From positions 1 to 64,000 of the forward strand of contig BTVJ01000021.1 in assembly GCA_045863395.1 (NCBI GenBank): DNA of 64,000 bases, read 5' to 3'. Of this stretch, positions 277 through 16,691 are shown one piece after another (the stretch's first letter is position 1; the number at the start of each line of letters is the position of its first letter). The position numbers were made by a program, and so were the translations under genes. Source of the DNA: Myxococcales bacterium (GTDB lineage: Bacteria > Myxococcota_A > UBA9042 > JABWCM01 > BTVJ01). The notes under the pieces were generated by a model, which searched no databases, was not told the origin of the DNA, and saw only the letters and a program-made list of their open reading frames with translations.

Positions 277-3200
277 CTACTGTGGCCCCGTCCCCGCGAC
301 GGGCGTGGTCTTGAACTGGGTGTAGTTGATGCTGCCGACCACCATCTCCTGGACGTGCGTCGCGGTCGGGACCGTGACGCCCCAGTAGTTGCCCGTCGCG
401 CTGAGGGTGCCGCCGCTCAGCACCCCCGACATCTCCGTGCCCCCGGTCGCCGGGGTCGTGTGGGCGATGCGGGCGAGGGTCATGGTGCCAGAGCCATAGG
501 CGTAGGCGTCGTTGACGATGATGGACAGCGCCGTGTAGGTGTCGAACGCAACATCGTAGAAGGTCAGGCCCAGGTTCGTCCCGAAGCTCTGGAGCGTCGT
601 CGCTCCAGAGTAGACCTTGCCGCTGATGGAGGTGGTCGAGGTGTCCTCGGAGTAGCTCGCCTCGAAGTGCAGCACGTGGCCGGCCCCGGGCACCGACCAG
701 GACTTGGACCCCGAGTCGCCGCTCCCATAGGGCGAGGTGGTGGACAGGGCCGCGTTGGCGTAGGCGGTCCTCCACGCCGTCGCGTTCCCGAAGATGTTGT
801 TGCCCGTGACACTCAGGGTCGGGTTGGCGCCGTCGAGGATCGTCGCCTGCACACCCTCCCGGGCGTTGGACTGGATGTTGCTCGACTGGACGCTGCCCGT
901 CGCGGTCCCCTGGATGAGGACGCCGTAGCCGTTGAGCTTCACGTTGCTCGCCGACAGCGCCAGGTGGCTCTTGCGGACGCGCACGCCACCGAGCGCGTTG
1001 TCCTGCACCGTCGCGTTCGTCAGCGCGTTGCTCGTCGACGTGGCGCCGTCCAGCTCCAGGCCCCAGAGCCCGCTCCCGGTCAGGGTCGCCTTGTCGAAGG
1101 TGCGAGCGCCGGTGCCCTCCAGGCGAACGGCGTCCTTGCCCGCCCCGTCGACGAGCAGCTCGGTCGCCACCACGGCCGACGTCCCCGTCGCGTGCAGCCC
1201 GTGCTCGCGGCAGTCGAGCACGGTGACGTTGCTCAGGTTCGTCGCCCCGGCCTGGGCCCGGAGGCACGTCCACCCGTCGCTCAGGGTCGCGTGGGTCATG
1301 GTCGTGGTCCCCGCGCCCGTGCCCTGGACGAACGTGTAGCCACCCTTGGCCGGGATGGTCCCCTCCACATCGAAGGACACGGGGCTCCCGGGCGCCCCCT
1401 CCACGCTCAGGGTCCCGGCAGCCCGGTCGATGAACCAGTCGCCACGCCCGTCGCCGTCCTGGTCCGTGGGGACGAAATTCACCGTGGTGCCGGGCGCGAT
1501 GGTCAGCGTCGCCCCCGATCCGACCGTGACGCCGCCGGTCACCCAGACATCGCCGGACCACGTGGTGCTGGCGGTCAGCGTGACCCCCCCGACCCACGGC
1601 CAGGGGTCCCAGGTCGCGTCGAAGGGCGCGCCGACGAAGCCCTGGATGGTGAGCTGCGGCGGGTCCTGGTAGCTCACCATGGAGAGCGCGTCGGGCCACG
1701 CCCCCAGGTAGTTGAAGCGGGCGTCCACCGTGCCGCTCGTCAGCAGCGACGCGAGCTGGCGGGACTTCGTGGGGTCCAGGTACGCCACTCGGTTCAGCGT
1801 CATCGTGCCCGAGCCGTAGGCGTAGGCGTCGGCGACCTTGACGCTCAGGCTCTTGATGGTCTCGTCGGGCATCTCCAGGAAGACGAGGGACGTGTTGCTC
1901 CCGTAGCTCTGGAGCACCGTGCTCCCGCTCAGGAGCTGCCCGGTGATCGAGGTCGTGGACGTGTCCTCGGAGTAGGTGACCTCCGCCGCCAGCGCCGGCC
2001 CCCCCGGCGACGTCCAGGCGCCCACCGAGGCGTCGCCGCTGCCATAGGGCGACGTCACGCTCTTGTTGAGATACACCACCTCCATGGACCCCTCGGTGGC
2101 GTTCTCGAAGATGTTGTTCCACTGCACATCAGGGGTGGGGTTGCCGTTCGAGACGTTGGTGACGCGCACCCCCTCCTGCTTGTTGAAGCGCAGGGTGGAG
2201 TGGGTGACGCTGCCGTCCGAGGGCCCCTGGAACCAGACGCCGGTACGCCCGTTGGACGTGATGGCGCAGCCGTCGATGTCCGCCGTCCCGCCCTTGAACC
2301 AGAAGCCGTGCAGGCCGTTTCCGGTGACCGTGCAGTCTGCGATCTGGCTCCCCGTGCCGTTCACGAACAGCACGCCCGTCTTGCCGGACGCCTTCACCGT
2401 CAGGTCCGTCGCCAGGATCTTGCCGCCGCTCACCTGGATGCCCTCGTCGACCGAGTCGTGGACGTTGACCCGCGTGAGCGTCGCCACGCCGCCTACCCCC
2501 ACCAGCATCCCCAGCCGGTTGTTGCGCAGCTCCACGTCCGTCAAGGTCGCGGGCGCTCGCACCTCCAGCGCGATGTCCCCATACTCGAAGACCGCGTGCT
2601 CGATGGAGTGCGGCCCCGACCCCGTGGCGAGGGTGACCCGGTTCCAGGAGCTGGCGTTGACCTTGCCGTTGGTGTCGAGGGTGGTGAAGATCACCGGCTC
2701 GTCGGCCGTGCCCTGCACCACCAGCGTGCCCCCGATGGTCAGGTCGAAGTCCCCCACCTGGTCGTTGTTCTGGTCGAACTCCAGGAACACCACCGTCGTG
2801 CCCTTGGCGATGGTCAGAGTCTGCCCGGCGGGTACCGTAGTATCGCCCGTGATGTTGATGGTCCCGTACCAGAGCGTCGTGGTCACCGCGCCGGAGACGT
2901 CCTGCACCGACTGGAAGTTAACGGTGCGGGTGGTGGAAGACACCTGCCCCACCGCGTCTCTCACCTCCATGCGGATGGTGTGCGCGCCGTCGGTGACGTA
3001 CTGGTGGTTCTCCACCTTCTGGGTGCTCCACGGCGTGTCGAACGTGCCGTCGTCCTCCCAGTCCCAGCGGACCTGGAGCGCAGCAGCCAGCGTCTCCGTG
3101 TCGGTGGACCCCGTGGCGTCCACCGTGGCGAGCAGGTTGCCCGAGATCACCGCGCTGAAGGAGGCCACGGGCTTGTCATTCTTCACGAAGAGCTGGCGGG

Positions 3201-6200
3201 GCGCCGAGCTGCCGGCGCTGCCGAGGTTGTCCGTCGCCCGCACGCGGAGCGCGATGGTGCTGTCCGTGAGCGACCCGAGCGGCACCGTGAAGTCGAAGAC
3301 GTAGGGGGCGATCAGGTCCGGCTCGCCGACGACGACCCCATCGGCGACCAGCTCCGCCTTGACGATGCTCCGGCCCGGCGCCGGAGTGACGTCCGCCGTG
3401 ATCCCGGCGACCAGCGTCCCCTGAGTCACCTGCAGGTCCGCCGCCGGCTTGGTGATCAAGACGACCGGCGCGTTGGCGTCGGTGATCTCGACCGTGCAGG
3501 CGGCCACGCCGGTGGCTCCCTGGTTGTCCGTCACCACCACCGTCACCTCGAAGGAGCCTACCTGTGAGAACGCATGCGTCACCTTGCCGCCAGGTCCCGC
3601 CGACTGGAAGCCGTCCCCCCACGTGAACTGGAAGCCCACGATGGTGCCGTCCGGGTCCGATGAGCCGCTGGCGTCGAAGCTGAGGCTCGCGCCGGTCTTG
3701 CCGCCCGGCGGGCACACCAGGGTCGCGGCCGGCGGCTGATTGCCCGCGCCATTCGGGGCGCCGGGCGTCCAGGTGGCGTAGGCGTGGAAGTCCTTGGAGT
3801 TGTCGTCCGTGTCGGTCCCCACCGCGTCGCGCCCGTGGCTCGACCCCTCGGGCGCCACTGGGGCCGGCGCGCCCTCCCCCGCGAAGATGGCGCCGGCGAA
3901 GCTGCCGTACCCGAACGCATCCACCACCTGGGCGCCCCACCGGAGCTGGATGCTGTCCGGACCGTTCTGGTAGTCGGCGAGGGTCGAGATCTGGTCCGAC
4001 GCCGCCACCACCTCCGAGATCGACCCCGTCTTCCCCACCACGAAGAGGCCGTCGTCGCCGATGCTCCCGACCAGCGCGATGACGTTGTACTCCTGCCCGT
4101 TGGCGCCGTTGATGCCCACCAGCGAGAAGCCGTCCAGCGGCAGGCCCGGCTCGCCGAGCAGCTCCACGAAGGCGGTGGTGTCCGACCCCTGCGCGTTGTA
4201 GAGGACCTCGTTCAGCACTACCTTGCCCGGGGCCGCCGTGCCCTTGCACTCGCCCGCCACGCAGGTCTGGTTCTGGCCGCAAGAGACGGTCGTACCCCAC
4301 CCGAGGCAGCCGTCCTGGTTCCAGTCGCCGCACTGCCGCGTGCCGTTCCCCGTCGGGGTGCACTCGACCAGGCCCACCGCCGGGCAGTCGTCCACGCAGG
4401 TGGTCGCGCAGTTCCCCGCCGAGCAGACGAGCCCCGGACCACAGGCGACGCCAGACCCCCACTCCAGGCAGCCGTCCACGTTCCAGTCGTCGCAGGTCTC
4501 CACCGCGCCCGCCACGTTGCACTGCTTCTCCCCCACCACGGAGCACGTGCTGGTGCAGCCGAGCGCGCAGCTCCCGGCGGAGCAGATCTCGCCGTCTCCG
4601 CAGGCCGTCGGTGTGCCCCACTCCAGGCAGCCGTCCTGGTCGTGGTCGTCGCAGGCCTGCCACGCGGCGCCCGCACACTGCTTGGCCCCCTTCACGGTGC
4701 ACTCGTCCTTGCACCCGAGGGCGCAGCTCCCGTTGGAGCACGTCAGGCCCGGGTCGCAGGCCACCGCGGTGCCCCACTCCAGGCAGGGATCCGCGTCCGT
4801 GTTGCCGCAGGTCTTGACCCCGTTGCCGTCGCAGGCCTTGGCGCCCGCCGTGGTGCACTCGTCCACGCAGGTGGACGAGCACGAGCCGTTGGAGCAGCTC
4901 TGGCCCGCCTCACAGGGCACCACCGAGCCCCACTCCAGGCAGCCGTCGCCGTTGGCGTCTCCGCAGACCTTCGTGCCGGCCCCCTCACACGCCTTTGCCC
5001 CCTTGACCGTGCACTCGTCCTTGCAGGTGGCCGTGCAGAAGCCGCCGGAGCACGACAAGCCCGGGGCGCACGCCTGAGGCGTCCCCCACTCCAGGCAGGG
5101 GTCGGCGTCCGTGTTGCCGCAGGTCGCGACCGCGCTCCCGTCGCACTTCTTGGCGCCGACCACGGAGCACTCGTCCGTGCAGGTGGACGAGCAGTTGCCC
5201 GACGAGCACGACTGCCCGGCCTCGCACGCCACGACGGAGCCCCACTCCAGGCAGCCGTTCTGGTCGAAGTCGTCGCAGGTCTTCACGCCGCCGCCCTCGC
5301 AGGCCTTGGCGCCCTTGGTGGTGCACTCGTTGGTGCAGGTCGTGCCGCAGAAGCCGTTGGAGCAGGTCTCACCGACGCCGCAGGGGGACGCCGTGCCCCA
5401 CTCCAGGCAAGGGTCCGCGTCGCTGTTGCCGCAGACCTGGACGGCCTGGCCCAGGCACTTCTTGGCGCCGGTCACGGAGCACTCGTCGATGCAGGACGTG
5501 GAGCAGGAGCCCGCCGAGCAGGTCTGGCCCGCGGCGCACGCCTGGACCGTCCCCCACTCCAGGCAGCCGTTGCCGTCGGCGTCCCCGCAGACCTTGTAGC
5601 CGTTGCCGTCGCAGGTCTTGGCGCCCTTCACGGTGCACTCGTCGGTGCAGCCGATCTGGCAGAAGCCGTTGGCGCAGGTCTGCCCGCTGGCGCAGGCGAC
5701 CGCCGTCCCCCACTCCAGGCACCCGTCGCCGTTGGAGTCGCCGCAGGTCTGCACCGCCGCGCCGCTGCACTTCGTGGCGCCGATGACGCTGCACTCGCTC
5801 ACGCAGTCCGACGAGCAGAAGCCCGACGAGCACACGTCGCCGCCGGCGCACGCCGTCACCTTGCCCCACTCCAGGCAGCCGTCGCCGTCGTGCTCGCCGC
5901 ACTCCTGCCATCCACCAACCCCAGCGCACTGGCGCGCGCCGCTGACCGTACACTCGTCGGTGCACGAGGACGCGCAGGAGCCGCCGGAGCAGACCAGCCC
6001 GCTCTGGCACGGGGTGGAGCTGCCCCACTCCAGGCAGCCGTCGAAGTTGAGGTCCGCGCAGACGACCACGGAGTCTCCGTCGCACTTCTTGGCGCCCTGC
6101 ACCGTGCACTCCTCGGTGCCGGCGCAGCCGACGGAGCAGAAGCCGCCCTGGCACACCGTCCCCCCGATGCAGTCGACGGGCCCGCCCCACTCCAGGCAGC

Positions 6201-6693
6201 CGTCCTTGTCGTAGTCCTTGCACGTCACGACGGCGTTGCCGTCGCACTGCTTCTCGCCGACGACGGCGCAGGCGTCCTCGCAGGTCAGCGCGCAGTGGCC
6301 GTCCACGCACAGCAGCTCGCCGCAGGGCTCCGCCTTGCCCCAGTCGAGGCAGCCGCCCGTCTCGACGCACGTCTGCACGCCGTTGCCGTCGCAGCGCAGC
6401 GCCCCGGCCGCGGGGCATTGGTCCTCGCAGGTCGGGACGTCCGCCGCGGCATCCGGTGCGTCGGTCCCGCCGTCCGATCCCCCCGTGTCCTGGGTCGCCG
6501 TGTCTGCCGGCTGTGCTCCATCCTCCCCGACGCCCCCGGCGTCCTCTGCACCGATCCCGCCAGAGTCCGCGGCCGCCCCATCCGTGCCGCCGCCCGCGTC
6601 GAACGTCCCCGTCCCAGCGGTCCCCCCGCTGTCACACGCCCAAAGAACCAGGACCAGGGCGGCCCACGCTCCGCCACACAACGTCAAACGCAT
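277..6693 (-). CDS. Giant (2138 aa) surface lipoprotein: 14 Cys-rich repeats, lamin-tail-like domain, PKD/Ig-like domains, two right-handed beta-helix modules
   Basis: Lipobox-like LWAC; repeats ending DxDGCLEWG; VVLNEVLYN...FVEL (LTD-like); FDASGSSDPDG...WGDG and VRWDWEDDG (PKD); Asn/Gly parallel beta-helix repeats. Confidence 0.85.
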   Translation of the reverse strand: MRLTLCGGAWAALVLVLWACDSGGTAGTGTFDAGGGTDGAAADSGGIGAEDAGGVGEDGAQPADTATQDTGGSDGGTDAPDAAADVPTCEDQCPAAGALRCDGNGVQTCVETGGCLDWGKAEPCGELLCVDGHCALTCEDACAVVGEKQCDGNAVVTCKDYDKDGCLEWGGPVDCIGGTVCQGGFCSVGCAGTEECTVQGAKKCDGDSVVVCADLNFDGCLEWGSSTPCQSGLVCSGGSCASSCTDECTVSGARQCAGVGGWQECGEHDGDGCLEWGKVTACAGGDVCSSGFCSSDCVSECSVIGATKCSGAAVQTCGDSNGDGCLEWGTAVACASGQTCANGFCQIGCTDECTVKGAKTCDGNGYKVCGDADGNGCLEWGTVQACAAGQTCSAGSCSTSCIDECSVTGAKKCLGQAVQVCGNSDADPCLEWGTASPCGVGETCSNGFCGTTCTNECTTKGAKACEGGGVKTCDDFDQNGCLEWGSVVACEAGQSCSSGNCSSTCTDECSVVGAKKCDGSAVATCGNTDADPCLEWGTPQACAPGLSCSGGFCTATCKDECTVKGAKACEGAGTKVCGDANGDGCLEWGSVVPCEAGQSCSNGSCSSTCVDECTTAGAKACDGNGVKTCGNTDADPCLEWGTAVACDPGLTCSNGSCALGCKDECTVKGAKQCAGAAWQACDDHDQDGCLEWGTPTACGDGEICSAGSCALGCTSTCSVVGEKQCNVAGAVETCDDWNVDGCLEWGSGVACGPGLVCSAGNCATTCVDDCPAVGLVECTPTGNGTRQCGDWNQDGCLGWGTTVSCGQNQTCVAGECKGTAAPGKVVLNEVLYNAQGSDTTAFVELLGEPGLPLDGFSLVGINGANGQEYNVIALVGSIGDDGLFVVGKTGSISEVVAASDQISTLADYQNGPDSIQLRWGAQVVDAFGYGSFAGAIFAGEGAPAPVAPEGSSHGRDAVGTDTDDNSKDFHAYATWTPGAPNGAGNQPPAATLVCPPGGKTGASLSFDASGSSDPDGTIVGFQFTWGDGFQSAGPGGKVTHAFSQVGSFEVTVVVTDNQGATGVAACTVEITDANAPVVLITKPAADLQVTQGTLVAGITADVTPAPGRSIVKAELVADGVVVGEPDLIAPYVFDFTVPLGSLTDSTIALRVRATDNLGSAGSSAPRQLFVKNDKPVASFSAVISGNLLATVDATGSTDTETLAAALQVRWDWEDDGTFDTPWSTQKVENHQYVTDGAHTIRMEVRDAVGQVSSTTRTVNFQSVQDVSGAVTTTLWYGTINITGDTTVPAGQTLTIAKGTTVVFLEFDQNNDQVGDFDLTIGGTLVVQGTADEPVIFTTLDTNGKVNASSWNRVTLATGSGPHSIEHAVFEYGDIALEVRAPATLTDVELRNNRLGMLVGVGGVATLTRVNVHDSVDEGIQVSGGKILATDLTVKASGKTGVLFVNGTGSQIADCTVTGNGLHGFWFKGGTADIDGCAITSNGRTGVWFQGPSDGSVTHSTLRFNKQEGVRVTNVSNGNPTPDVQWNNIFENATEGSMEVVYLNKSVTSPYGSGDASVGAWTSPGGPALAAEVTYSEDTSTTSITGQLLSGSTVLQSYGSNTSLVFLEMPDETIKSLSVKVADAYAYGSGTMTLNRVAYLDPTKSRQLASLLTSGTVDARFNYLGAWPDALSMVSYQDPPQLTIQGFVGAPFDATWDPWPWVGGVTLTASTTWSGDVWVTGGVTVGSGATLTIAPGTTVNFVPTDQDGDGRGDWFIDRAAGTLSVEGAPGSPVSFDVEGTIPAKGGYTFVQGTGAGTTTMTHATLSDGWTCLRAQAGATNLSNVTVLDCREHGLHATGTSAVVATELLVDGAGKDAVRLEGTGARTFDKATLTGSGLWGLELDGATSTSNALTNATVQDNALGGVRVRKSHLALSASNVKLNGYGVLIQGTATGSVQSSNIQSNAREGVQATILDGANPTLSVTGNNIFGNATAWRTAYANAALSTTSPYGSGDSGSKSWSVPGAGHVLHFEASYSEDTSTTSISGKVYSGATTLQSFGTNLGLTFYDVAFDTYTALSIIVNDAYAYGSGTMTLARIAHTTPATGGTEMSGVLSGGTLSATGNYWGVTVPTATHVQEMVVGSINYTQFKTTPVAGTGPQ
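4235..6435 (-). repeat. 14 tandem ~52-aa Cys-rich repeats (C.DEC...GAK.C.G.....C.D.D.DGCLEWG....C..G..CS.G.C)
   Basis: ccccactccaggca recurs about every 156 nt; 14 CL[EDG]WG motifs counted in the translation; boundaries approximate. Confidence 0.9.
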
Positions 6694-6789
6694 CGGACAC
6701 CTCCTGTGCGCCGGGACGGTCCCCGGCGTTGCGAGGCAATATCGCCACGCGCGCGCCGGATCAAGCGAAATGGGCTGACGTGAGTGACT

Positions 6790-7788
6790 CTACAGCTTGC
6801 GCGTTGCCAGCAGGCGCCCCACGTGCTCGGCGGCCTCGTCGAGGGCGGAGCGGCCGGGCCAGCCGGCCATGGACACGATGAACCGCTCCCCGGTGTCGCC
6901 CCGCTTCACGAACACCACGTCGCTGAACCACTCACGGGCGTAGCCGGGCTTGCTCCAGGTCTGGATCTTCACGTCCCCGAAGCCGCGGCGCAGCCCGTCG
7001 AGCACGCCGTTGCCCCGGGAGCGCTTGGCCGACATGGCGCTTCGGAGCAGCTTGAGCTCCACGGCGCCCAGGGCGAACCGCTGATCCTCGGGCAGCTTCT
7101 CGTGCATCATCACGCGACGCAGGTTCTCGGCCAGCTCGCGCAGCGTCGTGCAGTTGCCCTCCTCGGGGCAGTCGAACTGCCGCTTGCCCGCCCGCTCCGG
7201 CACCTTGACCGTTCGCCCACCCTCCACGAGCTCGATGGGCGGCGAGTGTCGGGTCGTCGTCGTGTTGGTCTCCGGGTCCTTGACCCGCCCCGAGTAGGCG
7301 CGCAGCAGCACGGTCTTGCTGAAGCCGTTGCGGGGCGTGAAGAAGCGCCCGTTGAGGTCATCGAAGCCCACCAGCTCCACGAGCATGTCGTAGGCCTTGT
7401 TGTCGCTCGGGGTCAGCGCGCGGCGCACCACCTGCTCGACGGTCAGCGTCTTGGGTCCCGACCCATAGAGCCACGTGCCCCGCGCCTTCGGGGTCAGCCC
7501 CAGCGCCTTCGTCTTCTCCAGCGCCGCGGTCGCCGCGAAGAGCTTGACGCAGGAGGCCGGCCACCAGTCGTCCCGGTGCTCCGACGAGCCGCCGGTGTCG
7601 TAGGCGGCGATCACGGCGCCCTTGTCGTCGAGCTTCAGCACGAGCGCCTTGAACTGCTTGGGTGGCTTGAACCCGCCCCCCTCCAGCAGCCGGGGCAGGG
7701 TCACCTGGTCCACGGGCTGAGCGACCGCGCTCACCGCGACCGACAGGACCGCCGCGACCATCCACCCCACGAGCTTGCCGTGCGCCAT
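6790..7788 (-). CDS. Secreted serine hydrolase, class A beta-lactamase/PBP-like fold
   Basis: RBS ggagga; signal peptide; PASCVK (SxxK), SDN and KPG (KTG-like) motifs. Confidence 0.75.
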   Translation of the reverse strand: MAHGKLVGWMVAAVLSVAVSAVAQPVDQVTLPRLLEGGGFKPPKQFKALVLKLDDKGAVIAAYDTGGSSEHRDDWWPASCVKLFAATAALEKTKALGLTPKARGTWLYGSGPKTLTVEQVVRRALTPSDNKAYDMLVELVGFDDLNGRFFTPRNGFSKTVLLRAYSGRVKDPETNTTTTRHSPPIELVEGGRTVKVPERAGKRQFDCPEEGNCTTLRELAENLRRVMMHEKLPEDQRFALGAVELKLLRSAMSAKRSRGNGVLDGLRRGFGDVKIQTWSKPGYAREWFSDVVFVKRGDTGERFIVSMAGWPGRSALDEAAEHVGRLLATRKL

Positions 7789-7911
7789 CGACGTTCCTCC
7801 AGTCTGAAGACGCCGTGGGTACCATGGTCTGGGCGCGGCGTCCACGTCCCGGGCTTGCGCACCCCCACCCAGGCGGACCATGTTGGAGGCAGGGTGGACG
7901 GAGTTGCTCAG

Positions 7912-9027
7912 ATGGACGGCCCCCTGGTCACGCAGGACCTCGTCGCACGCGCCCTGGATCGCCAGTCCCTGCGCGAGCTGGACCACGACGGACTCCTCTA
8001 CCACCGGTTCCGTGACGACGCGGCGGGCGTCGCGCGGGGGACGGTGCTCATCGCCGGCCACGCGGTGCCGAGCTACCCGTCCATCGGGCGCATCTTCGTG
8101 CTGGAGCGGGGCCTGCAGCGCACCTTCGGTGACGGCCCCTTCTGGGCGGAGGAGAAGATCGACGGCTACAACGTGCGCGTGGTGCGCGTCGAGGGGCGGC
8201 TGTTGCCCCTGACCCGCGGGGGCTTCGTCTGCCCCTTCACCGAGGACCGCCTCGCCGACATGGCCGACCTGCACCCGCTCTTCGACGTGATGCCCGACGC
8301 GGTCCTGTGCTGTGAGGTGGCCGGGCGCGACAACCCCTACATCGACGCCTGCCCACCCCAAGCGGGGGACGACGTGCGCCTGTTCGCCTTCGACCTGATG
8401 CGCCTCGACGCCCCCGGCTTCGTGCCGCTCGCCCGGCGCGACGCGCTGCTCGACGGCCTGGGCGTGCCGCGCGCCCGGGTGCGGGGGCGGTACACCATTG
8501 CGCACCTGGACGCCATCCGCCGCGACGTCCTGGCGCTGGACCACCTCCGCGCCGAGGGCTTGATCTTCAAGCCGCCCGGCGAGGGGCTGCGCGTGAAGTA
8601 CGTGACCCCGTCCATCGAGCTCGTGGACATTGCCGAGGACGCCGAGCTCCTCGCCGAGCTGCCCGGGGAGTTCTTCTCCAACCGCCTCCTGCGCCTGGCG
8701 ATCAGCCTCGCGGAGCTCGGCCTCACGGCCGGCGTCGCCCACGCGGAGGCGATGGTCGGCAAGGCCCTCGTCCGCGACTTCCTGGCGACGGTGCGCGAGG
8801 TGATGGACGGGGGCGTCGTCGGAAAGACCTACCGGGTGCGCGTCCACTCGGACGGGGTCGCCGACCAGGTGCTCGCGCACCTGCAGCGGGCGTCGAGCAA
8901 GATCCAGGTCCGAGAGGTGGGTCGCCACCGAGAGGGCGACTTCGTGGTGCTGACCCTGCACAAGACCTGGCAGCACTCCACGGCCAAGCTCAAAGGCCTC
9001 CTCGATGGACAGGTCGTGATGGACTGA
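7912..9027 (+). CDS. ATP-dependent RNA ligase, Pab1020/Rnl3 family
   Basis: YPSIGRI, EEKIDGYNVR (motif I KxDG), TRGGFVCPFT, EVAGRDNPY, FAFDL, EGLIFK, RVKYVT; alternative GTG start at 7894 behind ggagg. Confidence 0.9.
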   Translation: MDGPLVTQDLVARALDRQSLRELDHDGLLYHRFRDDAAGVARGTVLIAGHAVPSYPSIGRIFVLERGLQRTFGDGPFWAEEKIDGYNVRVVRVEGRLLPLTRGGFVCPFTEDRLADMADLHPLFDVMPDAVLCCEVAGRDNPYIDACPPQAGDDVRLFAFDLMRLDAPGFVPLARRDALLDGLGVPRARVRGRYTIAHLDAIRRDVLALDHLRAEGLIFKPPGEGLRVKYVTPSIELVDIAEDAELLAELPGEFFSNRLLRLAISLAELGLTAGVAHAEAMVGKALVRDFLATVREVMDGGVVGKTYRVRVHSDGVADQVLAHLQRASSKIQVREVGRHREGDFVVLTLHKTWQHSTAKLKGLLDGQVVMD

Positions 9028-9029
9028 CT

Positions 9030-9644
9030 CTACGTGAACTGGGAGCACTGGTCCCGGGCCGCGGTCTCCACCGTGTCCCGCAGGTGCCGGGGCGGGATGA
9101 GCCGCAACCCGAGCTTGTCCGCCCAGGTGACGACGCCGTTGTCGCTGGAGCAGACCGCCGCCTCCAGCTCGTGGGCGAGCAGCACCACGTCCACGTCCTC
9201 GCGGGAGTCGATGAGGCCCGCACGGAGCGCCTGCCGATACTGGTCGCGGAGCCGGTTGATGCTCCTGTCCACGCTCTCGGCGCTGACCTCCCGCACCGCC
9301 TGCTCCGCGACGCGAAGCCCTCGGTCGATGCGCCGCCGAAGATCGTCGATGAGATCGTAGAGCAGGTAGCCGGGCACCAGGACCCCGAAGCGGCGGGGAG
9401 ACCGCAGCGCCACCACGAGCTCGAAGCCGCTCGGGAGCCCCACGTCCCCGAGGAAGGTCTGGAGCTCCTCGAAGATGGACGTCGGCATGTAGAAGTCCAG
9501 GCGCCCGCGCGCCTTGGACGCGATGCCGAGGAAGGTGGTGAAGGCCTGGTGGGGCGTCTCCCCCCACTGGCGGGCGGTGTCGGGGTTGGTGAAGACGCTC
9601 GTGTCGAGGACGACGCGCAGGGTCTCGGGAGGCTGGGTGTTCAT
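9030..9644 (-). CDS. RNA-free ribonuclease P (HARP, Aq_880 homolog; PIN-type 'RNA ligase partner' protein)
   Basis: VVLDTSVFTNPD, FYMPTSIFEEL, RRRIDRGLRVAE, LRDQYRQALRAGLIDSREDVDVVLLAHEL, SSDNG: conserved acidic metal ligands present; 204 aa. Confidence 0.9.
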   Translation of the reverse strand: MNTQPPETLRVVLDTSVFTNPDTARQWGETPHQAFTTFLGIASKARGRLDFYMPTSIFEELQTFLGDVGLPSGFELVVALRSPRRFGVLVPGYLLYDLIDDLRRRIDRGLRVAEQAVREVSAESVDRSINRLRDQYRQALRAGLIDSREDVDVVLLAHELEAAVCSSDNGVVTWADKLGLRLIPPRHLRDTVETAARDQCSQFT

Positions 9645-9708
9645 GGAGCACCTCCAGCTTCAATGTAGCACGTCCAGGGAGCGCCGGCAGCCGGGGGCCG
9701 GGGCTGTT

Positions 9709-9764
9709 GTCCGAGTGACATCGACGTAGCCCCAATGACAACGACATGGCGCTGTCAATTTGAC
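9709..9764. promoter_or_regulatory. Three NorR-like GT-N7-AC enhancer sites
   Basis: gtccgagtgac (9709-9719), gccccaatgac (9729-9739, one mismatch), gtcaatttgac (9754-9764, palindromic), upstream of a sigma54 promoter. Confidence 0.6.
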
Positions 9765-9789
9765 TACGCATGCGTATCACACATTTTCA

Positions 9790-9802
9790 ATTCAAGCACT
9801 TA
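9790..9802 (+). promoter_or_regulatory. IHF-like binding site
   Basis: attcaagcactta vs WATCAANNNNTTR (1 mismatch), in an AT-rich patch between the enhancers and the promoter. Confidence 0.5.
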
Positions 9803-9807
9803 CACGA

Positions 9808-9825
9808 CTGGCACGGCACGTGCTT
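9808..9825 (+). promoter_or_regulatory. Sigma54 (-24/-12) promoter of ric
   Basis: cTGGCACGgcacgTGCtt: GG at 9810-9811, GC at 9822-9823, exact 10-nt spacing. Confidence 0.75.
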
Positions 9826-9869
9826 AGCCGGGCACGCGAGAACGGCGACCCACGCAAGGAGACGACGCC

Positions 9870-10535
9870 ATGACCACCTTCGAGACCTCCACCCCAGTCG
9901 GCCAGATCGCCACCTCCCACCCCGGCGCCGGCCGCGTCCTGATGCGACACAACATCGACTTCTGCTGTGGCGGGCGCCGCTCCCTCGCCGACGCCTGCGC
10001 CTCCGCCGGCATCGACGCGGCCGCCCTGCTCTCCGAGATCGCCGCGGAGGAACCCCAGCGCGACGACGTGCGCTGGGACCTGGAGCCCGTCGACGGGCTC
10101 ATCGGCCACATCCTCGAGGCCTACCACCGCCCTCTGGACGAGGAGCTGCCGCGCATCGCCGGCCTGATGAACAAGGTCACCCACCGCCACGGCGACGAGA
10201 ACCCCTGGCTCGCGGAGCTCAAGTCCAACGTCGACGCCGTCATCCAGGACCTGGTCGAGCATATGGTGAAGGAGGAGCGCGTGCTGTTCCCCTGGATCCT
10301 GTCGGGCAACGGACGGACGGCGGGCGGCCCCATCCAGGTGATGCACACCGAGCACGACACGGTCGCCTGGTACCTCGGCAAGATCCGCTCGCAGACCGGC
10401 GACTACGTTCCGCCCGCCGGCGCCTGCAACTCCTGGCGCGCCCTCTGGATTGCCCTGGAGGGCCTGGAGGTCTCCCTCAAGGAGCACATCCACCTGGAGA
10501 ACAACGTCCTCTTCCCCCGCGCCCTCGCTGCCTGA
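9870..10535 (+). CDS. ric: Iron-sulfur cluster repair di-iron protein (Ric/YtfE/ScdA)
   Basis: IDFCCGG N-terminal motif; hemerythrin-like HMVKEERVLFP, EHD, HIHLENNVLFP; RBS aaggag. Confidence 0.93.
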   Translation: MTTFETSTPVGQIATSHPGAGRVLMRHNIDFCCGGRRSLADACASAGIDAAALLSEIAAEEPQRDDVRWDLEPVDGLIGHILEAYHRPLDEELPRIAGLMNKVTHRHGDENPWLAELKSNVDAVIQDLVEHMVKEERVLFPWILSGNGRTAGGPIQVMHTEHDTVAWYLGKIRSQTGDYVPPAGACNSWRALWIALEGLEVSLKEHIHLENNVLFPRALAA

Positions 10536-10634: not shown

Positions 10635-11549
10635 CTACCTCAGGGGCACTGACCGCAGCTCCGCCGCCAGGAGCTGGAGCTCGTGCTCCATGGGGTGGCT
10701 CCCCCGCCAGATCAGCCGGAAGAAGTCCCGGTGCGGCTCTACGTGCTCGACGAGGGGCACCAGCCGCCCCGCGGCCAGATCCGGCTCGACGAAGTAGCGG
10801 GGCAGCACGGCGACCCCGGCCCCCTCCAGCAGCCGGTAGCGGACCGCCGCGATGGTGCCAAGGTGCTCGGCGCCGCGGAAGGCCCACACGTCCGACACCG
10901 GAGCGGCGTCCAGGAAGTAGCGGAACAGGGGCAGATCCGGGTGCGCGTCCAGCAGCACGTGGGCCATGGCGTGCTCGGGCTCTGTGAGGGGCCGGTCCGC
11001 GATGAGCCCCGGCTCACCGACGAACACGTATCGCTCCTCGTGGAGCGGGGCGTAGCGCAGGTCTCCGAGCGTCAGACGCACGCTGGAGATCATGGCGTCG
11101 ATGCGCCCGCTCCGCACGCGCTCCAGCAGGTCGGCGCTGTCCCCGAAGTACAGATCGAGCAGGCGCTCCGGGCGCTGCTCCCGCATCCGCTTGAGTTCCG
11201 GCAGGACCCAGCTCATGCCGAGCTCGAAGCGCGTGCCCACCGTCAGCGCGAAGGGGAGCGACTCGTCCACCTCGACCACCGCCTCGATGCAGGCGCGGGC
11301 CTCCTCCAAGCACCGCTGGGCGTGGGGGAGCAGCGCCTCCCCTGCCGGGGTCAGGCGCACCGTCCGTGTGGTGCGGTCGAAGAGCGGCACGCCGACCAGC
11401 TCCTCCAGGGCCCGCACGCGGGCGCTCAGCGCCGACGGAGACAGCATCACGTGGCTGGCCGCCGTCTTGAAGTGCAAGGTCCGGGCGGCCGCGACGAAGC
11501 AGCGCAGCGTCTCGATGTCCGGCAGCATCGCGGGGATCAGGTTCCTCAT
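10635..11549 (-). CDS. LysR-family transcriptional regulator
   Basis: LRCFVAAARTLHFKTAASHVMLSPSALSARVRALEELVGVPLFDRTTRTVRLTPAG HTH plus substrate-binding domain. Confidence 0.93.
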   Translation of the reverse strand: MRNLIPAMLPDIETLRCFVAAARTLHFKTAASHVMLSPSALSARVRALEELVGVPLFDRTTRTVRLTPAGEALLPHAQRCLEEARACIEAVVEVDESLPFALTVGTRFELGMSWVLPELKRMREQRPERLLDLYFGDSADLLERVRSGRIDAMISSVRLTLGDLRYAPLHEERYVFVGEPGLIADRPLTEPEHAMAHVLLDAHPDLPLFRYFLDAAPVSDVWAFRGAEHLGTIAAVRYRLLEGAGVAVLPRYFVEPDLAAGRLVPLVEHVEPHRDFFRLIWRGSHPMEHELQLLAAELRSVPLR

Positions 11550-11604
11550 GGTCTCGCTCCTGCCGATCCCCGCGGAGTACGGCGCCCATCGGTGGCGGCG
11601 GCGC

Positions 11605-14600
11605 TCACGCGGACGCTCCCAAGACCTGCACCTCGCTGCGCCCCGCACCGAGGGGGCGCACCACCACGCGAGCCCCCAGTCGCTCGGCGAGCCCGTCCAC
11701 GTGGGAGATGACCCCCACCTGGCAGCCGCTGGCCTGCAGCGCCTCCAGCGCGCCGACCGCCCGGTGCAGCGTGTCCGGGTCCAGGCTGCCGAAGCCCTCG
11801 TCGATGAACAGCGACCCGATGGCCACGCTGCGCGACGACAGGGACGACAGGCCCAGCGCGAGGGCGAGGGACACGAGGAAGCTCTCGCCCCCGGACAGGC
11901 TGCTCACGCTGCGGGGGTCGTCGCCCATGTCGCCGTCGATGATCTGGATGTCGAGCTCTCTGCCTCCCACCCTCTCCAGCCGGTAGCGCCGGTGCAGCTC
12001 CTGGAGGCGCACGTTGGCCGCGGCGAGCAGCGCGTCGAGGGACAGGCTCTGAGCGAAGTTTCGGAAGGTCTTGCCCGCGGAGTCCCCAATGACGCTGGAG
12101 AGCTGGCTCCAGAGCTTGGACTCGCCCTCCTGCTGCACCATGCCGGGCGCCAGCTCGGCGCGGCGCCGGGACGCCTCGTCGTCCGCGCGGAGCCGGACCT
12201 CCGACTGCACGCGGCGCTCCTCCAGGGTGGAGAGGGTCGCCTCCGCCTCCGTGAGGACGTCGGCTGCCGCCTCGTGGCTGAGGCTCGGCGCACCGGAGGC
12301 CTCGTGGGCCGCCAGGGCGCGGCGCCGCTCGTCGAGCAGCGCCGTGCAGGTGGTCCGGTGGTCGTCGATGGCACGGAGGTGGGCCCTGCGCTCCTCGCGC
12401 CACCGATCGTCCCGGGCCAGCAGCGCTGCAAGCTCGGCTCGCGCGAGGCCGAGGCGCGACAGCTCGCCCTGGAGCGCCTCCTCGGCAGCCCGCCCCTCTT
12501 CGATGCGCCGGGCGAGCTCGCTCGCGCTGGCGGCGGCCGTGGCCACCGCCGCAGCCGACGCGGTCCGCGCCAGGTCCAGGCTGACGGCCGCCTGCCTGTG
12601 GCGCTCGCGCGCAACCGCCACGGCCGCGCCCAGCTCCTGGCGGACGGCCTCCACCGGGCGCCCACCGAGGATGCCGCGCCGCTCCTCACGGAGCACCTCC
12701 AGGGCGGCGACCCTCGCGCGGTGAGTGGCCCGGCGCTCCTCCAGGTCCTCACGGGCGCGCCGCGAGGCCGCACGAAGCTCGGCGAGGCGCGGCCCGAGCG
12801 CCGCGAGCGCCTCGCGGGCCCTCGCGAGGCCGGCCGTCCGCTCGGCGTGGGCGGACACCAGGGCCGCCAGGGCGGCCTGGCCCGCCTGCGGGTCGCGACG
12901 CACCAGTGCGCGCTCCACGGGGCAGCCGATCAGGGCCGGGCCGAGCTCCTCCCACGCGGCGGCCGCCTGCGCCGTGGCTCGCGCCAGCTCTCCCTCGTTG
13001 CGTTCGACCTCGATGGAGGCGAGGGTGCGCCTCCGCTCGACCTCCCGCAGCGCGGTGATCACGCCCTCCCGTGCCTCGCGCGCCGCCTCCGCGGCCCTCC
13101 GCGCCGCCTCCAGCGCCGCGGCCTGGGCCTCGACCCTCCTCTCCTGCGCTGCGATGGCGTCGAGGCGGGCGCGGCACGCAGCCGCTGCGGCGTCTGCCGC
13201 CACGGCGTCCGGCGCGTGCGGCAGGGGCGGCACGGGCCAGGGCGCGCCGGCGTGACCCCCGCCCGCAGTGTCGCCGTGACCGGGTACGAGCGCGTCGCCC
13301 TGGCTCCCCGCGGACGTCGCCGTACCGCCCGGGGAAGACCCGCCCGTGGCTGCGTCGTCGCCGTCCCACGCGAGCCGAGCCCCTTCGCCCCCGGAGGTGC
13401 GTGCGGCGCTCGCGGCGGCGGCCGACCAGGCCCCCTGTGCCGCCGCGAGCGCCGCCCGGTGGCTCCCCGCCGCCGACTCTGCGTCCTGCTCCCGCTCCCT
13501 CAGGGCCGCCGCCCTCTCCGCCGCCGCTGCTGCCTTTCGCTGGGCCTCGCTGGCCCGGCTCCGCAGCGACGCCACCCGCTGCTCCAGCTCCCCGACGCGG
13601 GCGTCTCCTGGGCCATCGCCCGCCCACGGGTGCTCGACCGCGCCGCACAGGGGACACGCCTCCCCCTCTCGCAGCTCGGCCCTCCGGTGAGCCAGCTCGG
13701 ATGCCGCTCGGGCCGCGACGAGCGCCGCCTCCGCCGCGGCCAGCCCGCCATCGTCAGCGCCGAGGCGCGCCGCCTCTTCGGCGGCCGCGCGCCCCGCGCG
13801 TGCCTCGGTCGCCACACGGAGCGCCTCCGCCAACGCTGCGGACTCCCGAGCCGCGTCGCGGGCGATGCGGCCGAGCGCCTCGCACGCGCCGAGCCGCTCC
13901 GCCGCATCCTCCCGGGCGCTGCGCAGCGCCGCGGGATCGGGGCCGGCCGCCTGCGCCGCCCCGGCGAGCGCCGCCTGCGCCTTCGCGAGGGCGCCCTGGC
14001 GCCGCTCCAGCTCCTGCTGCCGCTCGGCCTCCGCCGCGACGAGGGACTCCTGGGCATCGCGCGCCACCCGCAGGGCCGCGGTCGCCGCTGCGGCCAGCTC
14101 ACCGGCCGCCCGGAGCCGGTCGATCTCTCTGCGCCAGCGACCCCACTCGGCGGCGACGGGCGCGACTCCCGCGTGGGCGTCGAGCCATGCCGCGGCCTCG
14201 GCGGCGGCCGCGAGTGCTCCCGCCTCGGCGGCCGCGCCCTCGGCGGCCGAGGCATCCGCGAGCACGGCACCCTCCTCGGCTGCTCGGGCGGCCCGCTCCG
14301 CCGCGTCGGCCTCCTCGCGCGCCTGGCGGCCGCGCACGTCGAAGGCGGCCGCACGCTCCAGCTCGGGCTCCGCCGCCTCCCGCGCCTCCTCCACCCGGGC
14401 GACCTCCACCGCCGCCTCCGCCTCCAGAGACGAGGCAGAGTCCTCGCCGCGGCGGGCCTCGGCCTCACGCTCTCTCGCACGCTCGAGCTCCGCGCGAGCC
14501 CCTACCACCGCTCGCGTGGCGACCTCGGCGCGCTCCAAGGCGGCTCGCCCCCGCTGTGCCGCGTCGACCGCCTCCAGCTCCGCGCGCTCCGCAGCGGCCT

Positions 14601-15465
14601 CCCTGAAGCGCTGCTCCGCAACCTCCACCTCCGCGGCCGCGGCGGCGACGGCGCCCCTCCGCTCCTCCGCCGCCCGGTGCCAGGCCTGCGCCAACCGCGC
14701 CCCCTCCGCCCGCGCGCGCACCGCCTCCCCCTCGGCCACGGCCTGGGCGCGCGCGGCCTCCACCTCGGCGCGCGCCTCCACCCCCAGCGTCTGCACCGCG
14801 TCCAGCTCCGCCTGGCGCCGGGCCAGCTCCTCGCCCTCCCGCTTGGCCCGCTCGAAGGCGAGCCTTCCGACCGTCCCGTACAGCCCCGTGTCCGTCATGC
14901 GCTCCAGCAGGGCGGCGCGCTCGTCTGCCGACGCCCGCAGGAACGCGGAGAAGTCCCCCTGCGCCAGCAGCACCGACCGGGTGAACTGCTCCCAGGACAG
15001 GCCCAGCCGCCTCTCGACCCCCGCCCGGGTCTCTTCCACGCCGTGGGCGACCACGTGACCGTCCGGCTCCGACAGCGACATCGTGACCTGCTGGAGCTGC
15101 CCGTCCGCCCGGCGCCTCGCCCGGCGCACCGACCACGTCGAGCGCCACCTGAGGCCGTCGACCCCGAGGAAGTCCACCTCCGCCTCCCCCTCGCCTGCAC
15201 CCCGTCGCAGCACGTTGCGAGGGTCGACGACGGTCAGCCCGTCTCCGTCCGGATCCGTGCGCGAGGTCCTTGCGGCGTCCCTGACCCGGGGGACGCGGTT
15301 GAACAGCGCGAGGCACATGGCATCGAGGATGGTGCTCTTGCCGCTGCCCGTCGGGCCGGTGATGGCGAACACGCCAGCGCCGCCGAGGACGGGCCCCGTC
15401 AGGTCCACGTCGAACCGCCCCTCCAGGCTGGCCAGATTGGAGCCGCGGATGGCAAGGATCCTCAT
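11605..15465 (-). CDS. sbcC: SbcC (Rad50-like) ATPase
   Basis: GPTGSGKST Walker A, LLAQGDF Q-loop, CPLCG zinc hook, LSGGESF signature, LFIDEGFGSLD Walker B, ISH. Confidence 0.95.
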   Translation of the reverse strand: MRILAIRGSNLASLEGRFDVDLTGPVLGGAGVFAITGPTGSGKSTILDAMCLALFNRVPRVRDAARTSRTDPDGDGLTVVDPRNVLRRGAGEGEAEVDFLGVDGLRWRSTWSVRRARRRADGQLQQVTMSLSEPDGHVVAHGVEETRAGVERRLGLSWEQFTRSVLLAQGDFSAFLRASADERAALLERMTDTGLYGTVGRLAFERAKREGEELARRQAELDAVQTLGVEARAEVEAARAQAVAEGEAVRARAEGARLAQAWHRAAEERRGAVAAAAAEVEVAEQRFREAAAERAELEAVDAAQRGRAALERAEVATRAVVGARAELERAREREAEARRGEDSASSLEAEAAVEVARVEEAREAAEPELERAAAFDVRGRQAREEADAAERAARAAEEGAVLADASAAEGAAAEAGALAAAAEAAAWLDAHAGVAPVAAEWGRWRREIDRLRAAGELAAAATAALRVARDAQESLVAAEAERQQELERRQGALAKAQAALAGAAQAAGPDPAALRSAREDAAERLGACEALGRIARDAARESAALAEALRVATEARAGRAAAEEAARLGADDGGLAAAEAALVAARAASELAHRRAELREGEACPLCGAVEHPWAGDGPGDARVGELEQRVASLRSRASEAQRKAAAAAERAAALREREQDAESAAGSHRAALAAAQGAWSAAAASAARTSGGEGARLAWDGDDAATGGSSPGGTATSAGSQGDALVPGHGDTAGGGHAGAPWPVPPLPHAPDAVAADAAAAACRARLDAIAAQERRVEAQAAALEAARRAAEAAREAREGVITALREVERRRTLASIEVERNEGELARATAQAAAAWEELGPALIGCPVERALVRRDPQAGQAALAALVSAHAERTAGLARAREALAALGPRLAELRAASRRAREDLEERRATHRARVAALEVLREERRGILGGRPVEAVRQELGAAVAVARERHRQAAVSLDLARTASAAAVATAAASASELARRIEEGRAAEEALQGELSRLGLARAELAALLARDDRWREERRAHLRAIDDHRTTCTALLDERRRALAAHEASGAPSLSHEAAADVLTEAEATLSTLEERRVQSEVRLRADDEASRRRAELAPGMVQQEGESKLWSQLSSVIGDSAGKTFRNFAQSLSLDALLAAANVRLQELHRRYRLERVGGRELDIQIIDGDMGDDPRSVSSLSGGESFLVSLALALGLSSLSSRSVAIGSLFIDEGFGSLDPDTLHRAVGALEALQASGCQVGVISHVDGLAERLGARVVVRPLGAGRSEVQVLGASA

Positions 15466-16691
15466 GGCTCCCCCTGCGCCTGCTCGACCAGCGCATGGAA
15501 GGCATCCAGCAGCGCCGCCGGCGGCTCCCCGGCCTCGGGGAACAGCGCGCTCCAGCGCCTCAGGAACACGTCGCCGGGCTGGATCTCCCTGATCCCCACG
15601 GTCTCGTGGTCGGCGAGGGCCCCCGCCGCGGACCGCACCACGTGCGTACACAGGAGCCGCGCGGCCTTGCCCTCGACCGCCGCCTCCACCCGCGCCTTGA
15701 GGCCGGGCTCCGGCGCGTCGAGGCGCACGCGGACCTCCAGCCACGGCAGCTCGGCAGCTCCCTGCCCATCCCGCCCGGGGAGCGCCTCCAGGAGCGCCAG
15801 GACGTCCGCCAGGGGCCCCGGTCCGTCCGGCGGAACACGCAGGAGCTCGACGGCGCGGGGGACGTGGAGCGGCTCGATGCTGCGCTCCCCGTGCAGCTCG
15901 ACGAGCACGACCTGGTGGGGGTACGCCTCCTCGTCGAAGGCCATGGGGATCGGGCTCCCGGCGTAGCGCACCTCCGGGCGCCCTCCCACCGCCTGCGGGC
16001 GGTGCAGGTGACCGAGCGCCGCGTAGGCCACGTCCGCCGGGAACAGGTCCACGGGCAGCGCGTGGAGGTTGCCGCCGAGGATGCGTCGCTCGCTCAGCTC
16101 TGACAGGGAGGTCCCCGTCATGTAGCAGTGGCCCGTGACCACGAGGGGCTCCCCGTCCACCCGCCGGCGTGCTGCCTCCGCGAAGACCTCGTCGTGGACG
16201 GCCCGCACCCCGCCGATCAGGGGGTCGGCGAGCGGATCGCCCACGGCAGGAAGATCGGCAGGCCGCAGGTATGGCAGGGCCGCGCACAGGGCGGTGCTCC
16301 CGTCGGCGCCGTGGAGGCGCACCAGCACGCGGCCCATGTCGATGCCGTCGTCGCCCCGGGGGAGGCCCCCGACCACGTGCACCCCGAGGGCGCCGAGCAC
16401 GCTCCGCGGAGCGTCCAGCCGCGCCGCCGAGTCGTGGTTGCCGCCTACGATCACGGTCTGGAGCGCCGGGAGCCGCCGGCGCGCCTCCACCAGGGTCTCG
16501 AACAGCATGCGCTGAGCCTCCGCAGGGGGGTTGGCGGAGTCGAAGACGTCACCGGTGACGAGCAGGGCGTCGACGCGGCGCTCCTCGAGGGTGTCCACGA
16601 GCCAGGCGAGGAAGCGGCGGTGCTCGTGCTCGCGCGGCACGTCGTGCAGCGTGTGGCCGAGGTGCCAGTCCGAGGTGTGGAGGAGGCGCAT
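15462..16691 (-). CDS. sbcD: SbcD (Mre11-like) nuclease
   Basis: LHTSDWHLG, GDVFD, GNHDS, ALGHLH, YAGSP; 4-nt overlap with sbcC. Confidence 0.95.
   Translation of the reverse strand: MRLLHTSDWHLGHTLHDVPREHEHRRFLAWLVDTLEERRVDALLVTGDVFDSANPPAEAQRMLFETLVEARRRLPALQTVIVGGNHDSAARLDAPRSVLGALGVHVVGGLPRGDDGIDMGRVLVRLHGADGSTALCAALPYLRPADLPAVGDPLADPLIGGVRAVHDEVFAEAARRRVDGEPLVVTGHCYMTGTSLSELSERRILGGNLHALPVDLFPADVAYAALGHLHRPQAVGGRPEVRYAGSPIPMAFDEEAYPHQVVLVELHGERSIEPLHVPRAVELLRVPPDGPGPLADVLALLEALPGRDGQGAAELPWLEVRVRLDAPEPGLKARVEAAVEGKAARLLCTHVVRSAAGALADHETVGIREIQPGDVFLRRWSALFPEAGEPPAALLDAFHALVEQAQGEP

What the first reader, a model, noticed from the sequence alone, without database searches (positions are those of the whole stretch)
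7912..9644. Archaeal-type RNA ligase (Rnl3/Pab1020) tail-to-tail with RNA-free RNase P (HARP): a candidate RNA cut-and-seal module in a myxobacterium-like genome
Seen: an intact KxDG ligase and a HARP with its acidic catalytic residues. They converge with only 2 nt between the stop codons and no terminator. Established: HARPs cut pre-tRNA 5' leaders leaving 5'-P/3'-OH, are patchy in bacteria, often coexist with RNA-based RNase P, and were first annotated as 'RNA ligase partner' proteins. Pab1020-type ligases adenylate 5'-P ends and circularise RNA. Inference: HARP products are exactly the ends the ligase accepts, so the pair may circularise, adenylate or repair specific RNAs rather than only mature tRNA. 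The physiological substrate of the pair in bacteria is not known to me.
Basis: partly seen in the sequence, partly recalled or inferred. Interest (0 to 1): 0.75.

Follow-up and report, generated by a model that had tools for sequence, protein, structure and literature searches.

The report
Known HARP plus RNA ligase pair
This uncultured myxobacterium carries a small protein-only tRNA-trimming enzyme and an RNA-joining enzyme tail to tail, a gene pair already published in 2025 whose joint job is still untested; only the host group is an addition.

Summary
Observation confirmed. 7912-9027(+) is an intact Rnl3/Pab1020 RNA ligase (TIGR01209, 271.5 bits) and 9030-9644(-) an intact HARP (PIN_5, TIGR03875). 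The stops are 2 nt apart and no terminator was found. The pair, its convergent layout and the cut-then-circularise and adenylation ideas are published (Seshadri & Gopalan, mBio 2025, PMC12153264; 132 convergent rows in Table S1), and this scan met the pair before on other DNA. The genome keeps rnpB and rnpA, so HARP is an extra enzyme. Additions here: a Myxococcota host (no 'myxococc' row in Table S1); HARP in 6 of 401 phylum genomes, ligase in 5, always with HARP; congruent HARP and ligase trees over 45 pairs; a divergent layout in one genus, where one genome has both genes broken; presence in sludge RNA libraries; no fibrillarin found, so the published C/D-box route cannot apply. No third partner gene or substrate RNA was found. 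Most likely HARP cuts tRNA-shaped RNAs and Rnl3 adenylates or seals the ends (about 0.45). That step is inferred, and 4 of 5 tested HARPs from bacteria with both RNase P types were weak or inactive. New member of a known kind; interest low.

The parts
7912..9027 (+). Rnl3 / Pab1020-type ATP-dependent RNA ligase gene, 371 aa; motif I K82, N87, R89; motif Ia T101-R102; E135; Y143; F160; E215; motif V K229
   Evidence: K82 and K229 align with the two lysines of 8UCE that lie 146 residues apart, as PpaRnl K92 and K238 do
7900..7903 (+). Shine-Dalgarno-like GGAG, 8 nt before the ligase ATG
   Evidence: read by eye from the sequence
9028..9029 (.). 2-nt gap between the converging stop codons; no terminator-like hairpin found
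   Evidence: bridged by RNA-library contigs 7899-9637 (X1) and 8851-9321 (X3)
9030..9644 (-). HARP (protein-only RNase P, PIN_5, 'RNA ligase partner') gene, 204 aa; catalytic D14, D146, S147, E149, D150, D168; tRNA-binding R103, R111, R118, R133, R137, R141
9650..9655 (-). Shine-Dalgarno-like GGAGGT, 5 nt before the HARP ATG
   Evidence: read by eye from the sequence

Best explanation
SHOWN: this is the known HARP-Rnl3 two-gene unit. It is inherited as a pair, adapted to host codon usage, and additional to a normal RNA-based RNase P. INFERRED: the two enzymes act in sequence on a shared RNA. Oligomeric HARP grips a tRNA-shaped RNA at the elbow and cuts it by two-metal hydrolysis, leaving 5'-phosphate and 3'-OH ends (5' leader, and in the two Aquificae enzymes tested also the 3' trailer). 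Rnl3 loads AMP on K82, transfers it to that 5'-phosphate, and either leaves the RNA adenylated or seals or circularises it. The result would be an accessory, probably stress-time, end-protection or recycling route for tRNA-like RNAs, not bulk tRNA maturation. Identity of the pair about 0.97; this order of action about 0.45.
For: Families and residues. rnpB (237 bits) and rnpA (98 bits) present; also in 5 of 5 other HARP-positive phylum genomes. One-way dependence: 5 of 5 ligase-positive genomes have HARP, 5 of 6 HARP-positive genomes have the ligase, among 401 searched; the same asymmetry is in PMC12153264. Tree congruence over 45 pairs: 16 of 18 HARP splits with support >=0.9 recur in the ligase tree, none conflicts; Mantel rho 0.77, 0 of 2000 permutations reach it. 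Both genes are broken in the same genome, G217. Linkage survives a change of layout: convergent here and in G374, divergent in G068 and G217. End chemistry fits: AaHARP products carry 5'-P and 3'-OH and cleavage needs tRNA structure (PMC12217051); Rnl3 enzymes adenylate 5'-phosphorylated RNA and mainly circularise it (PMC11040149).
Against: No paper found in searches tests the coupled reaction. Only 1 of 5 HARPs from bacteria with both RNase P types was robustly active despite high conservation (PMC9945441). Congruent trees are expected from physical linkage or shared vertical descent alone, and the rows are related. HARP stands alone in G040; 25 of 80 metagenome loci have at least 1.5 kb on both sides and no ligase in the fetched DNA. 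No substrate RNA or third gene is conserved nearby. Whole circular tRNAs were reported only in three haloarchaea (PMC12558985); two are HARP-positive but ligase-negative in Table S1 and the third is not listed there, so tRNA circles do not need this ligase. Single knockouts of HARP or the ligase in archaea gave no growth defect (as reviewed in PMC12153264).
Confidence: 0.45

Rival explanations
1. Linked but independent. HARP is a back-up RNase P and Rnl3 a general repair or circularising ligase for 5'-P/3'-OH RNAs. They stay together because they were acquired together and are useful under the same conditions.
For: Convergent or divergent layouts mean separate transcripts. HARP occurs without the ligase (G040). 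In Aquifex and Thermodesulfobacteriales the genes are mostly unlinked (Table S1 and Fig. S2). The mBio authors concede this reading.
Against: The ligase never occurs without HARP (5 of 5 here; all ligase-positive genomes in PMC12153264). The genome already has RtcB for repair of another end chemistry and a complete RNA-based RNase P. Both genes decay together in G217.
Confidence: 0.25
2. Reverse order. Rnl3 acts first, adenylating (capping) 5'-monophosphate pre-tRNA leaders or wrongly circularising tRNA precursors; HARP then removes the capped leader or re-opens the circle at +1. HARP is the clean-up enzyme that makes the ligase safe to keep.
For: Fits the asymmetry (ligase never without HARP). 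PpaRnl adenylates strongly and ligates weakly (PMC11040149). The adenylated-leader version is proposed in PMC12153264.
Against: No data that RNA-based RNase P fails on adenylated leaders. Primary transcripts carry triphosphate, not the monophosphate Rnl3 needs (general knowledge).
Confidence: 0.15
3. Toxin-antitoxin or abortive-infection pair: HARP is a VapC-like RNase toxin and Rnl3 reseals its cuts.
For: HARP belongs to the VapC structural group of PIN domains (PMC12153264). Two-gene unit with variable neighbours and patchy distribution.
Against: HARP occurs without the ligase. HARPs rescue RNase P-depleted E. coli rather than kill it (PMC12439589 passages). The ligase knockout in T. kodakarensis has no growth defect. 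No HARP found in viral contigs. No mobile-element or defence family among the 63 neighbour ORFs scanned with Pfam.
Confidence: 0.05
4. HARP is the housekeeping RNase P of this cell, as in Aquificaceae, and the ligase is a bystander.
For: All catalytic and tRNA-binding residues are kept. About half of the tRNA genes lack an encoded CCA (23 of 49 retained calls have it), and one HARP prefers CCA-less precursors.
Against: Full-length rnpB (model positions 1-367) and rnpA are present. 395 of 401 phylum genomes searched have no HARP over the cut-off.
Confidence: 0.05

Closest known systems
HARP-Rnl3 co-localised pair (Seshadri & Gopalan, mBio 2025, PMC12153264; TIGR03875 + TIGR01209/PF18330)
   Same: Same two families, adjacent and convergent. 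Table S1 has 132 convergent rows; 127 of 164 bacterial double-positive genomes are co-localised. Same proposed mechanisms.
   Different: No 'myxococc' or 'polyang' row and no 'sludge' or 'wastewater' row in Table S1. The divergent layout of G068 and G217 appears confined to archaea in that table (my arithmetic from Fig. S2 and the 132/148/10 counts; I did not read all rows). The C/D-box route cannot apply: no fibrillarin found.
HARP / Aq880, PIN_5 (PDB 7F3E, 8KD9, 7E8K, 7OG5; PMC12217051)
   Same: E 2.7e-53 to 4.8e-50 over nearly the whole chain; D7, D138, S139, E141, D142, D160 and R94, R102, R109, R125, R129, R133 of AaHARP all kept.
   Different: Aquifex lacks RNA-based RNase P; this genome has it, like the five 'dual' bacteria of PMC9945441, four of whose HARPs were weak or inactive. 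Activity and oligomer state untested here.
Rnl3 ligases: Pab1020 (2VUG), PpaRnl (8UCE), MthRnl (5D1O), and 3QWU (Aquifex origin recalled, not in the call output)
   Same: Full-length matches, E 3.4e-71 (3QWU), 6.4e-59 (2VUG), 6e-58 (8UCE), 1e-34 (5D1O); nucleotidyltransferase motifs kept.
   Different: Its known natural substrates (C/D box RNAs) are archaeal. The position matching MthRnl F281, by motif spacing only, is Ile264 here. No bacterial in vivo substrate found in searches.

Membership tests
HARP (PIN_5) | PF08745 and TIGR03875 above curated cut-off, about 200 aa | tested here: met
   186.7 vs 27 bits and 187.3 vs 95.3 bits; 204 aa
HARP (PIN_5) | Catalytic D7, D138, S139, E141, D142, D160 (AaHARP numbering) | tested here: met
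   D14, D146, S147, E149, D150, D168; all invariant in 120 homologues
HARP (PIN_5) | Arginines that bind the tRNA elbow and cleavage site (R94, R102, R109, R125, R129, R133) | tested here: met
   R103, R111, R118, R133, R137, R141
HARP (PIN_5) | Tetramer-to-dodecamer assembly and pre-tRNA 5' cleavage | not testable with these tools
   Needs biochemistry; conservation did not predict activity in PMC9945441
Rnl3 / Pab1020 RNA ligase | TIGR01209 above cut-off plus Pab1020 C-terminal domain PF18330 | tested here: met
   271.5 vs 136.9 bits; Lig_C 55.2 vs 25 bits
Rnl3 / Pab1020 RNA ligase | Motif I Lys, Asn, Arg; motif Ia Thr-Arg; motif III Glu; IIIa Phe; IV Glu; V Lys | tested here: met
   K82, N87, R89, T101-R102, E135, F160, E215, K229. 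Lysines mapped by alignment to 8UCE; MthRnl residues mapped by motif order, not by a printed alignment
Rnl3 / Pab1020 RNA ligase | Homodimer; ATP-dependent adenylation and circularisation of single-stranded RNA | not testable with these tools
   Needs biochemistry; the dimer was not scored
HARP-Rnl3 pair (PMC12153264) | Both genes within 5 kb, on opposite strands | tested here: met
   2 nt apart, convergent
HARP-Rnl3 pair (PMC12153264) | Trend, not a rule: host from an extreme habitat | tested here: inconclusive
   Best RNA holders are sludge metagenomes of 2 studies of one year; X1 matches 1739 nt with 0 differences; temperature, salt and pH not known
Archaeal C/D box RNA circularisation pathway | Fibrillarin and C/D box guide RNAs in the host | tested here: not met
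   No PF01269 match in a 97.4%-complete genome; 4 archaeal controls ring. No Rfam hit in the window. Genome-wide C/D RNA search not run
Aquificaceae-type sole RNase P | Loss of rnpA and rnpB | tested here: not met
   RF00010 237.1 bits on C58, PF00825 98.3 bits on C13

The most novel reading that the evidence does not exclude
In a bacterium with no fibrillarin and an intact RNA-based RNase P, HARP makes both cuts on a pre-tRNA (5' leader at +1, 3' trailer 13-16 nt past the acceptor stem, as shown for AaHARP in PMC12217051) and Rnl3 closes the product into a covalent circle. HARP or RNase P could later re-open it at +1. That would be an enzyme-made, reversible store of circular tRNA-like RNA in bacteria, with the overlapping tail-to-tail transcripts balancing the two enzymes.
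Probability: 0.1. Interest if true: 0.8.

Novelty: new member of a known kind. Interest (0 to 1): 0.22.

Why it matters
The pair is ordinary in the sense of being published. The open question behind it is real: why do bacteria with a normal RNase P keep HARP, and what does Rnl3 act on where C/D box RNAs do not exist? This locus does not answer it. It widens the host range to Myxococcota and to sludge, which weakens the idea that the pair is only an adaptation to extreme habitats. It also adds three small pieces of evidence for linkage: congruent trees, joint decay in one genome, and a second gene layout. If the host is not a thermophile or halophile, its enzymes may suit E. coli assays better than those tested so far.

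Tried and rejected
Complex prediction (2 ligase chains plus 1 HARP, own alignments): verdict 'no answer', score 0.00 in 2 of 2 runs, controls not folded; no evidence either way. Third partner gene: all-against-all clustering of 1974 stop-to-stop frames from 87 loci gave only HARP, the ligase, their shadow frames and lineage-specific synteny. A Pfam scan of 63 chosen ORFs (59 of the 105 listed, leaving out HARP, ligase and distal ORFs, plus 4 window ORFs) showed no recurring RNA-related family and no Nudix. Substrate RNA nearby: Rfam 0 hits in the 64-kb window; tRNAs in only 3 of 87 loci. Viral carriage: none. The genome-contig scan with the single HARP gave only 2 loci, one a distant HARP without ligase and one weak. 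Expression: RNA-library contigs cover the pair, but all 30 bins have depth in X1-X3, so DNA carry-over is not excluded; contigs give no strand, level or circular junction; gaps between contigs at the intergenic regions are not used as evidence. Circular tRNA as support for the novel case: rejected, since the species reported lack the ligase or are unlisted. Recent transfer from archaea: rejected on GC3 0.95-0.96 like the neighbours and on tree position. Single origin in Myxococcota: the one-clade test did not finish, so not decided. One contig-length pairing (P0037 with P0209) was dropped before the tree because G374's own ligase is a different, cut sequence. Weak hits G294 (PIN_5, 26.5 bits) and G036 (TIGR01209, 19.5 bits) were below cut-off and not counted.

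Full report
1. Observation. The window holds a 371-aa ORF at 7912-9027 (+) and a 204-aa ORF at 9030-9644 (-), with 2 nt between the stops. The first scores 271.5 bits on TIGR01209 (cut-off 136.9) and carries RNA_ligase and Lig_C domains. The second scores 186.7 bits on PIN_5 and 187.3 on TIGR03875. Both match solved structures over nearly their whole length. The HARP residues that PMC12217051 shows to be catalytic or tRNA-binding are all kept. So are the ligase motifs; 19 columns are invariant across 102 homologues, including K82, N87, R89, R102, E135, Y143, E215 and K229. No sigma-70 promoter or intrinsic terminator was found in 7600-10000; such scans are weak in 70% GC DNA. Each gene has its own Shine-Dalgarno-like word. 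GC3 is 0.95 and 0.96, like six neighbours at 0.91-0.96, so this is no recent import.

2. Host and context. The genome is 8.77 Mb, 97.4% complete, with one copy of each gene. It has a full-length type A rnpB, rnpA, RtcB and tmRNA, and no fibrillarin match. Flanking genes are a beta-lactamase-like protein below the class A cut-off and an iron-sulfur repair di-iron protein. Neither recurs beside the pair elsewhere.

3. Relatives. HARP is in 2 of 41 near relatives including this genome. In 401 phylum genomes at least 85% complete, HARP passes its cut-off in 6 and the ligase in 5, this genome included; every ligase carrier has HARP. All five other carriers also have rnpB and rnpA. Layouts: convergent in G374; divergent in G068, with a CBS-domain gene between, and in G217; HARP alone in G040; in G044 each gene runs towards a contig end, so adjacency is unknown. 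In G217, HARP stops matching its closest homologue at residue 133 of 202 and the ligase lies in three pieces over two reading frames: joint decay, though assembly error is not excluded. Among the 80 best of 150 metagenome loci, 29 have the ligase convergent, none divergent or colinear, 25 have no ligase with at least 1.5 kb on both sides, and 26 are too short to say (one of the 29 duplicates G374, and many loci are near-redundant). In 22 of the 29 the stop codons overlap by 4-39 nt, in 6 they are 1-134 nt apart, and 1 value was a script artefact. The 2-nt gap here is therefore typical.

4. Trees. Of 18 HARP splits with support of at least 0.9, 16 recur in the ligase tree and none conflicts. 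Mantel rho is 0.77, reached by 0 of 2000 permutations. This shows co-inheritance, not co-function; the rows are related and one pair is duplicated. In a 136-row HARP tree (quick IQ-TREE search; the careful one did not finish), 6 of 7 Myxococcota-labelled proteins fall in one 53-row clade (SH-aLRT 91) of mostly unlabelled proteins. Its sister clade holds Nitrospirota, Nitrococcus and Acidobacteriaceae labels; G044 is a long branch outside. No named archaeal HARP was in this tree.

5. RNA libraries. 17 RNA runs of 5 studies hold part of the stretch; the three with over half of the words are sludge metagenomes of two studies of one year. In X1 one contig spans 7899-9637 with no difference from the window; in X3 one spans 8851-9321; both bridge the stop-stop junction. 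This is compatible with overlapping 3' ends but does not show transcription, strand or level, since DNA may be in these libraries.

6. What is in print. [quoted passage not shown] They propose HARP cleavage followed by circularisation of C/D box RNAs, removal of adenylated leaders, repair, or a toxin-antitoxin pair. Table S1 has 132 convergent, 148 divergent and 10 colinear entries and no 'myxococc' or 'polyang' hit. A search for HARP, RNase P and 'myxococc' gave one unrelated paper. Searches gave no experimental test of the pair; subscription journals are largely outside this library. Other papers seen: PMC12217051 (passages and section 10), PMC9945441 (abstract and passages), PMC11040149 and PMC4797309 (passages), PMC12439589 (passages), PMC12558985 (passages). 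Their supplements were not read; the HARP alignment in the PMC9945441 supplement might show what separates active from inactive HARPs. The scan itself has met this pair several times on other DNA.

7. How it most likely works. Shown: identity, intact active sites, co-inheritance, one-way dependence, coexistence with RNA-based RNase P. From the literature: HARP oligomers measure from the tRNA elbow and leave 5'-P and 3'-OH ends; AaHARP and HtHARP also trim 3' trailers, and only on tRNA-shaped RNA. Rnl3 enzymes adenylate 5'-P ends and mainly circularise. Inferred: HARP supplies ends that Rnl3 caps or seals on tRNA-like RNAs (0.45). Rivals are linked but independent enzymes (0.25), ligase first with HARP as clean-up (0.15), toxin-antitoxin (0.05) and housekeeping RNase P (0.05). 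Against the favoured reading: 4 of 5 HARPs from bacteria with both RNase P types were weak or inactive; HARP often stands alone; whole circular tRNAs occur in haloarchaea that lack this ligase; no substrate gene is linked.

8. Verdict. Real, correctly typed, already described. It is a new member of a known kind in a phylum and habitat not listed in the 2025 table. Interest 0.22. The boldest reading not excluded, enzyme-made reversible circular tRNAs in a bacterium, gets probability 0.1.

Noticed in passing
window 9754-9764 and 9809-9823 (+), upstream of the RIC/YtfE-like gene 9870-10535: A NorR-like box and a sigma-54-like -24/-12 site (both consensus patterns recalled) lie before the iron-sulfur repair gene, suggesting nitric-oxide control. 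Neither alone beats chance in the window (24 and 80 of 100 shuffles). RNA-library contigs begin at 9853 (X1) and 9857 (X2). The region is shared with the divergent HARP start.
   Followed up: partly
L023 (G217:C26) 5069-6706: HARP and ligase are both broken in this genome: HARP matches only residues 1-133 of 202, the ligase is in three pieces. Joint decay or assembly error.
   Followed up: partly
L022 (G068:C35) 5499-7814: Divergent HARP and ligase with a 162-aa CBS-domain gene between them, on the ligase strand. CBS domains often bind adenosine ligands (recalled). No matching gene between the two in G217.
   Followed up: partly
L027 (G044:C150) 6698-8329 and L026 (G044:C45) 7682-8272: G044 has a divergent ligase with two internal insertions and a long-branch HARP outside the main myxobacterial clade; each gene runs to a contig end.
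   Followed up: partly
metagenome loci L028-L107: In 22 of 29 convergent pairs the two stop codons overlap by 4-39 nt, in loci of 36-74% GC. Conserved tail-to-tail overlap could reflect antisense coupling; untested.
   Followed up: partly
G000 whole genome: 23 of 49 retained tRNA calls encode CCA (7 of 56 ARAGORN calls dropped by length; a few doubtful ones remain). RtcB on C41; tmRNA on C44; tRNA-Sec on C66.
   Followed up: no
window 277-6693 (-): 2138-aa protein with many cysteine-rich repeats after a signal-like N-terminus; not scanned against any family library.
   Followed up: no
window 6790-7788 (-): Beta-lactamase2-fold protein (47 bits) far below the class A beta-lactamase cut-off (18.8 vs 200), divergent from the ligase.
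   Followed up: no
window 10635-16691 (-): LysR regulator followed upstream by SbcC- and SbcD-like genes; ordinary.
   Followed up: no
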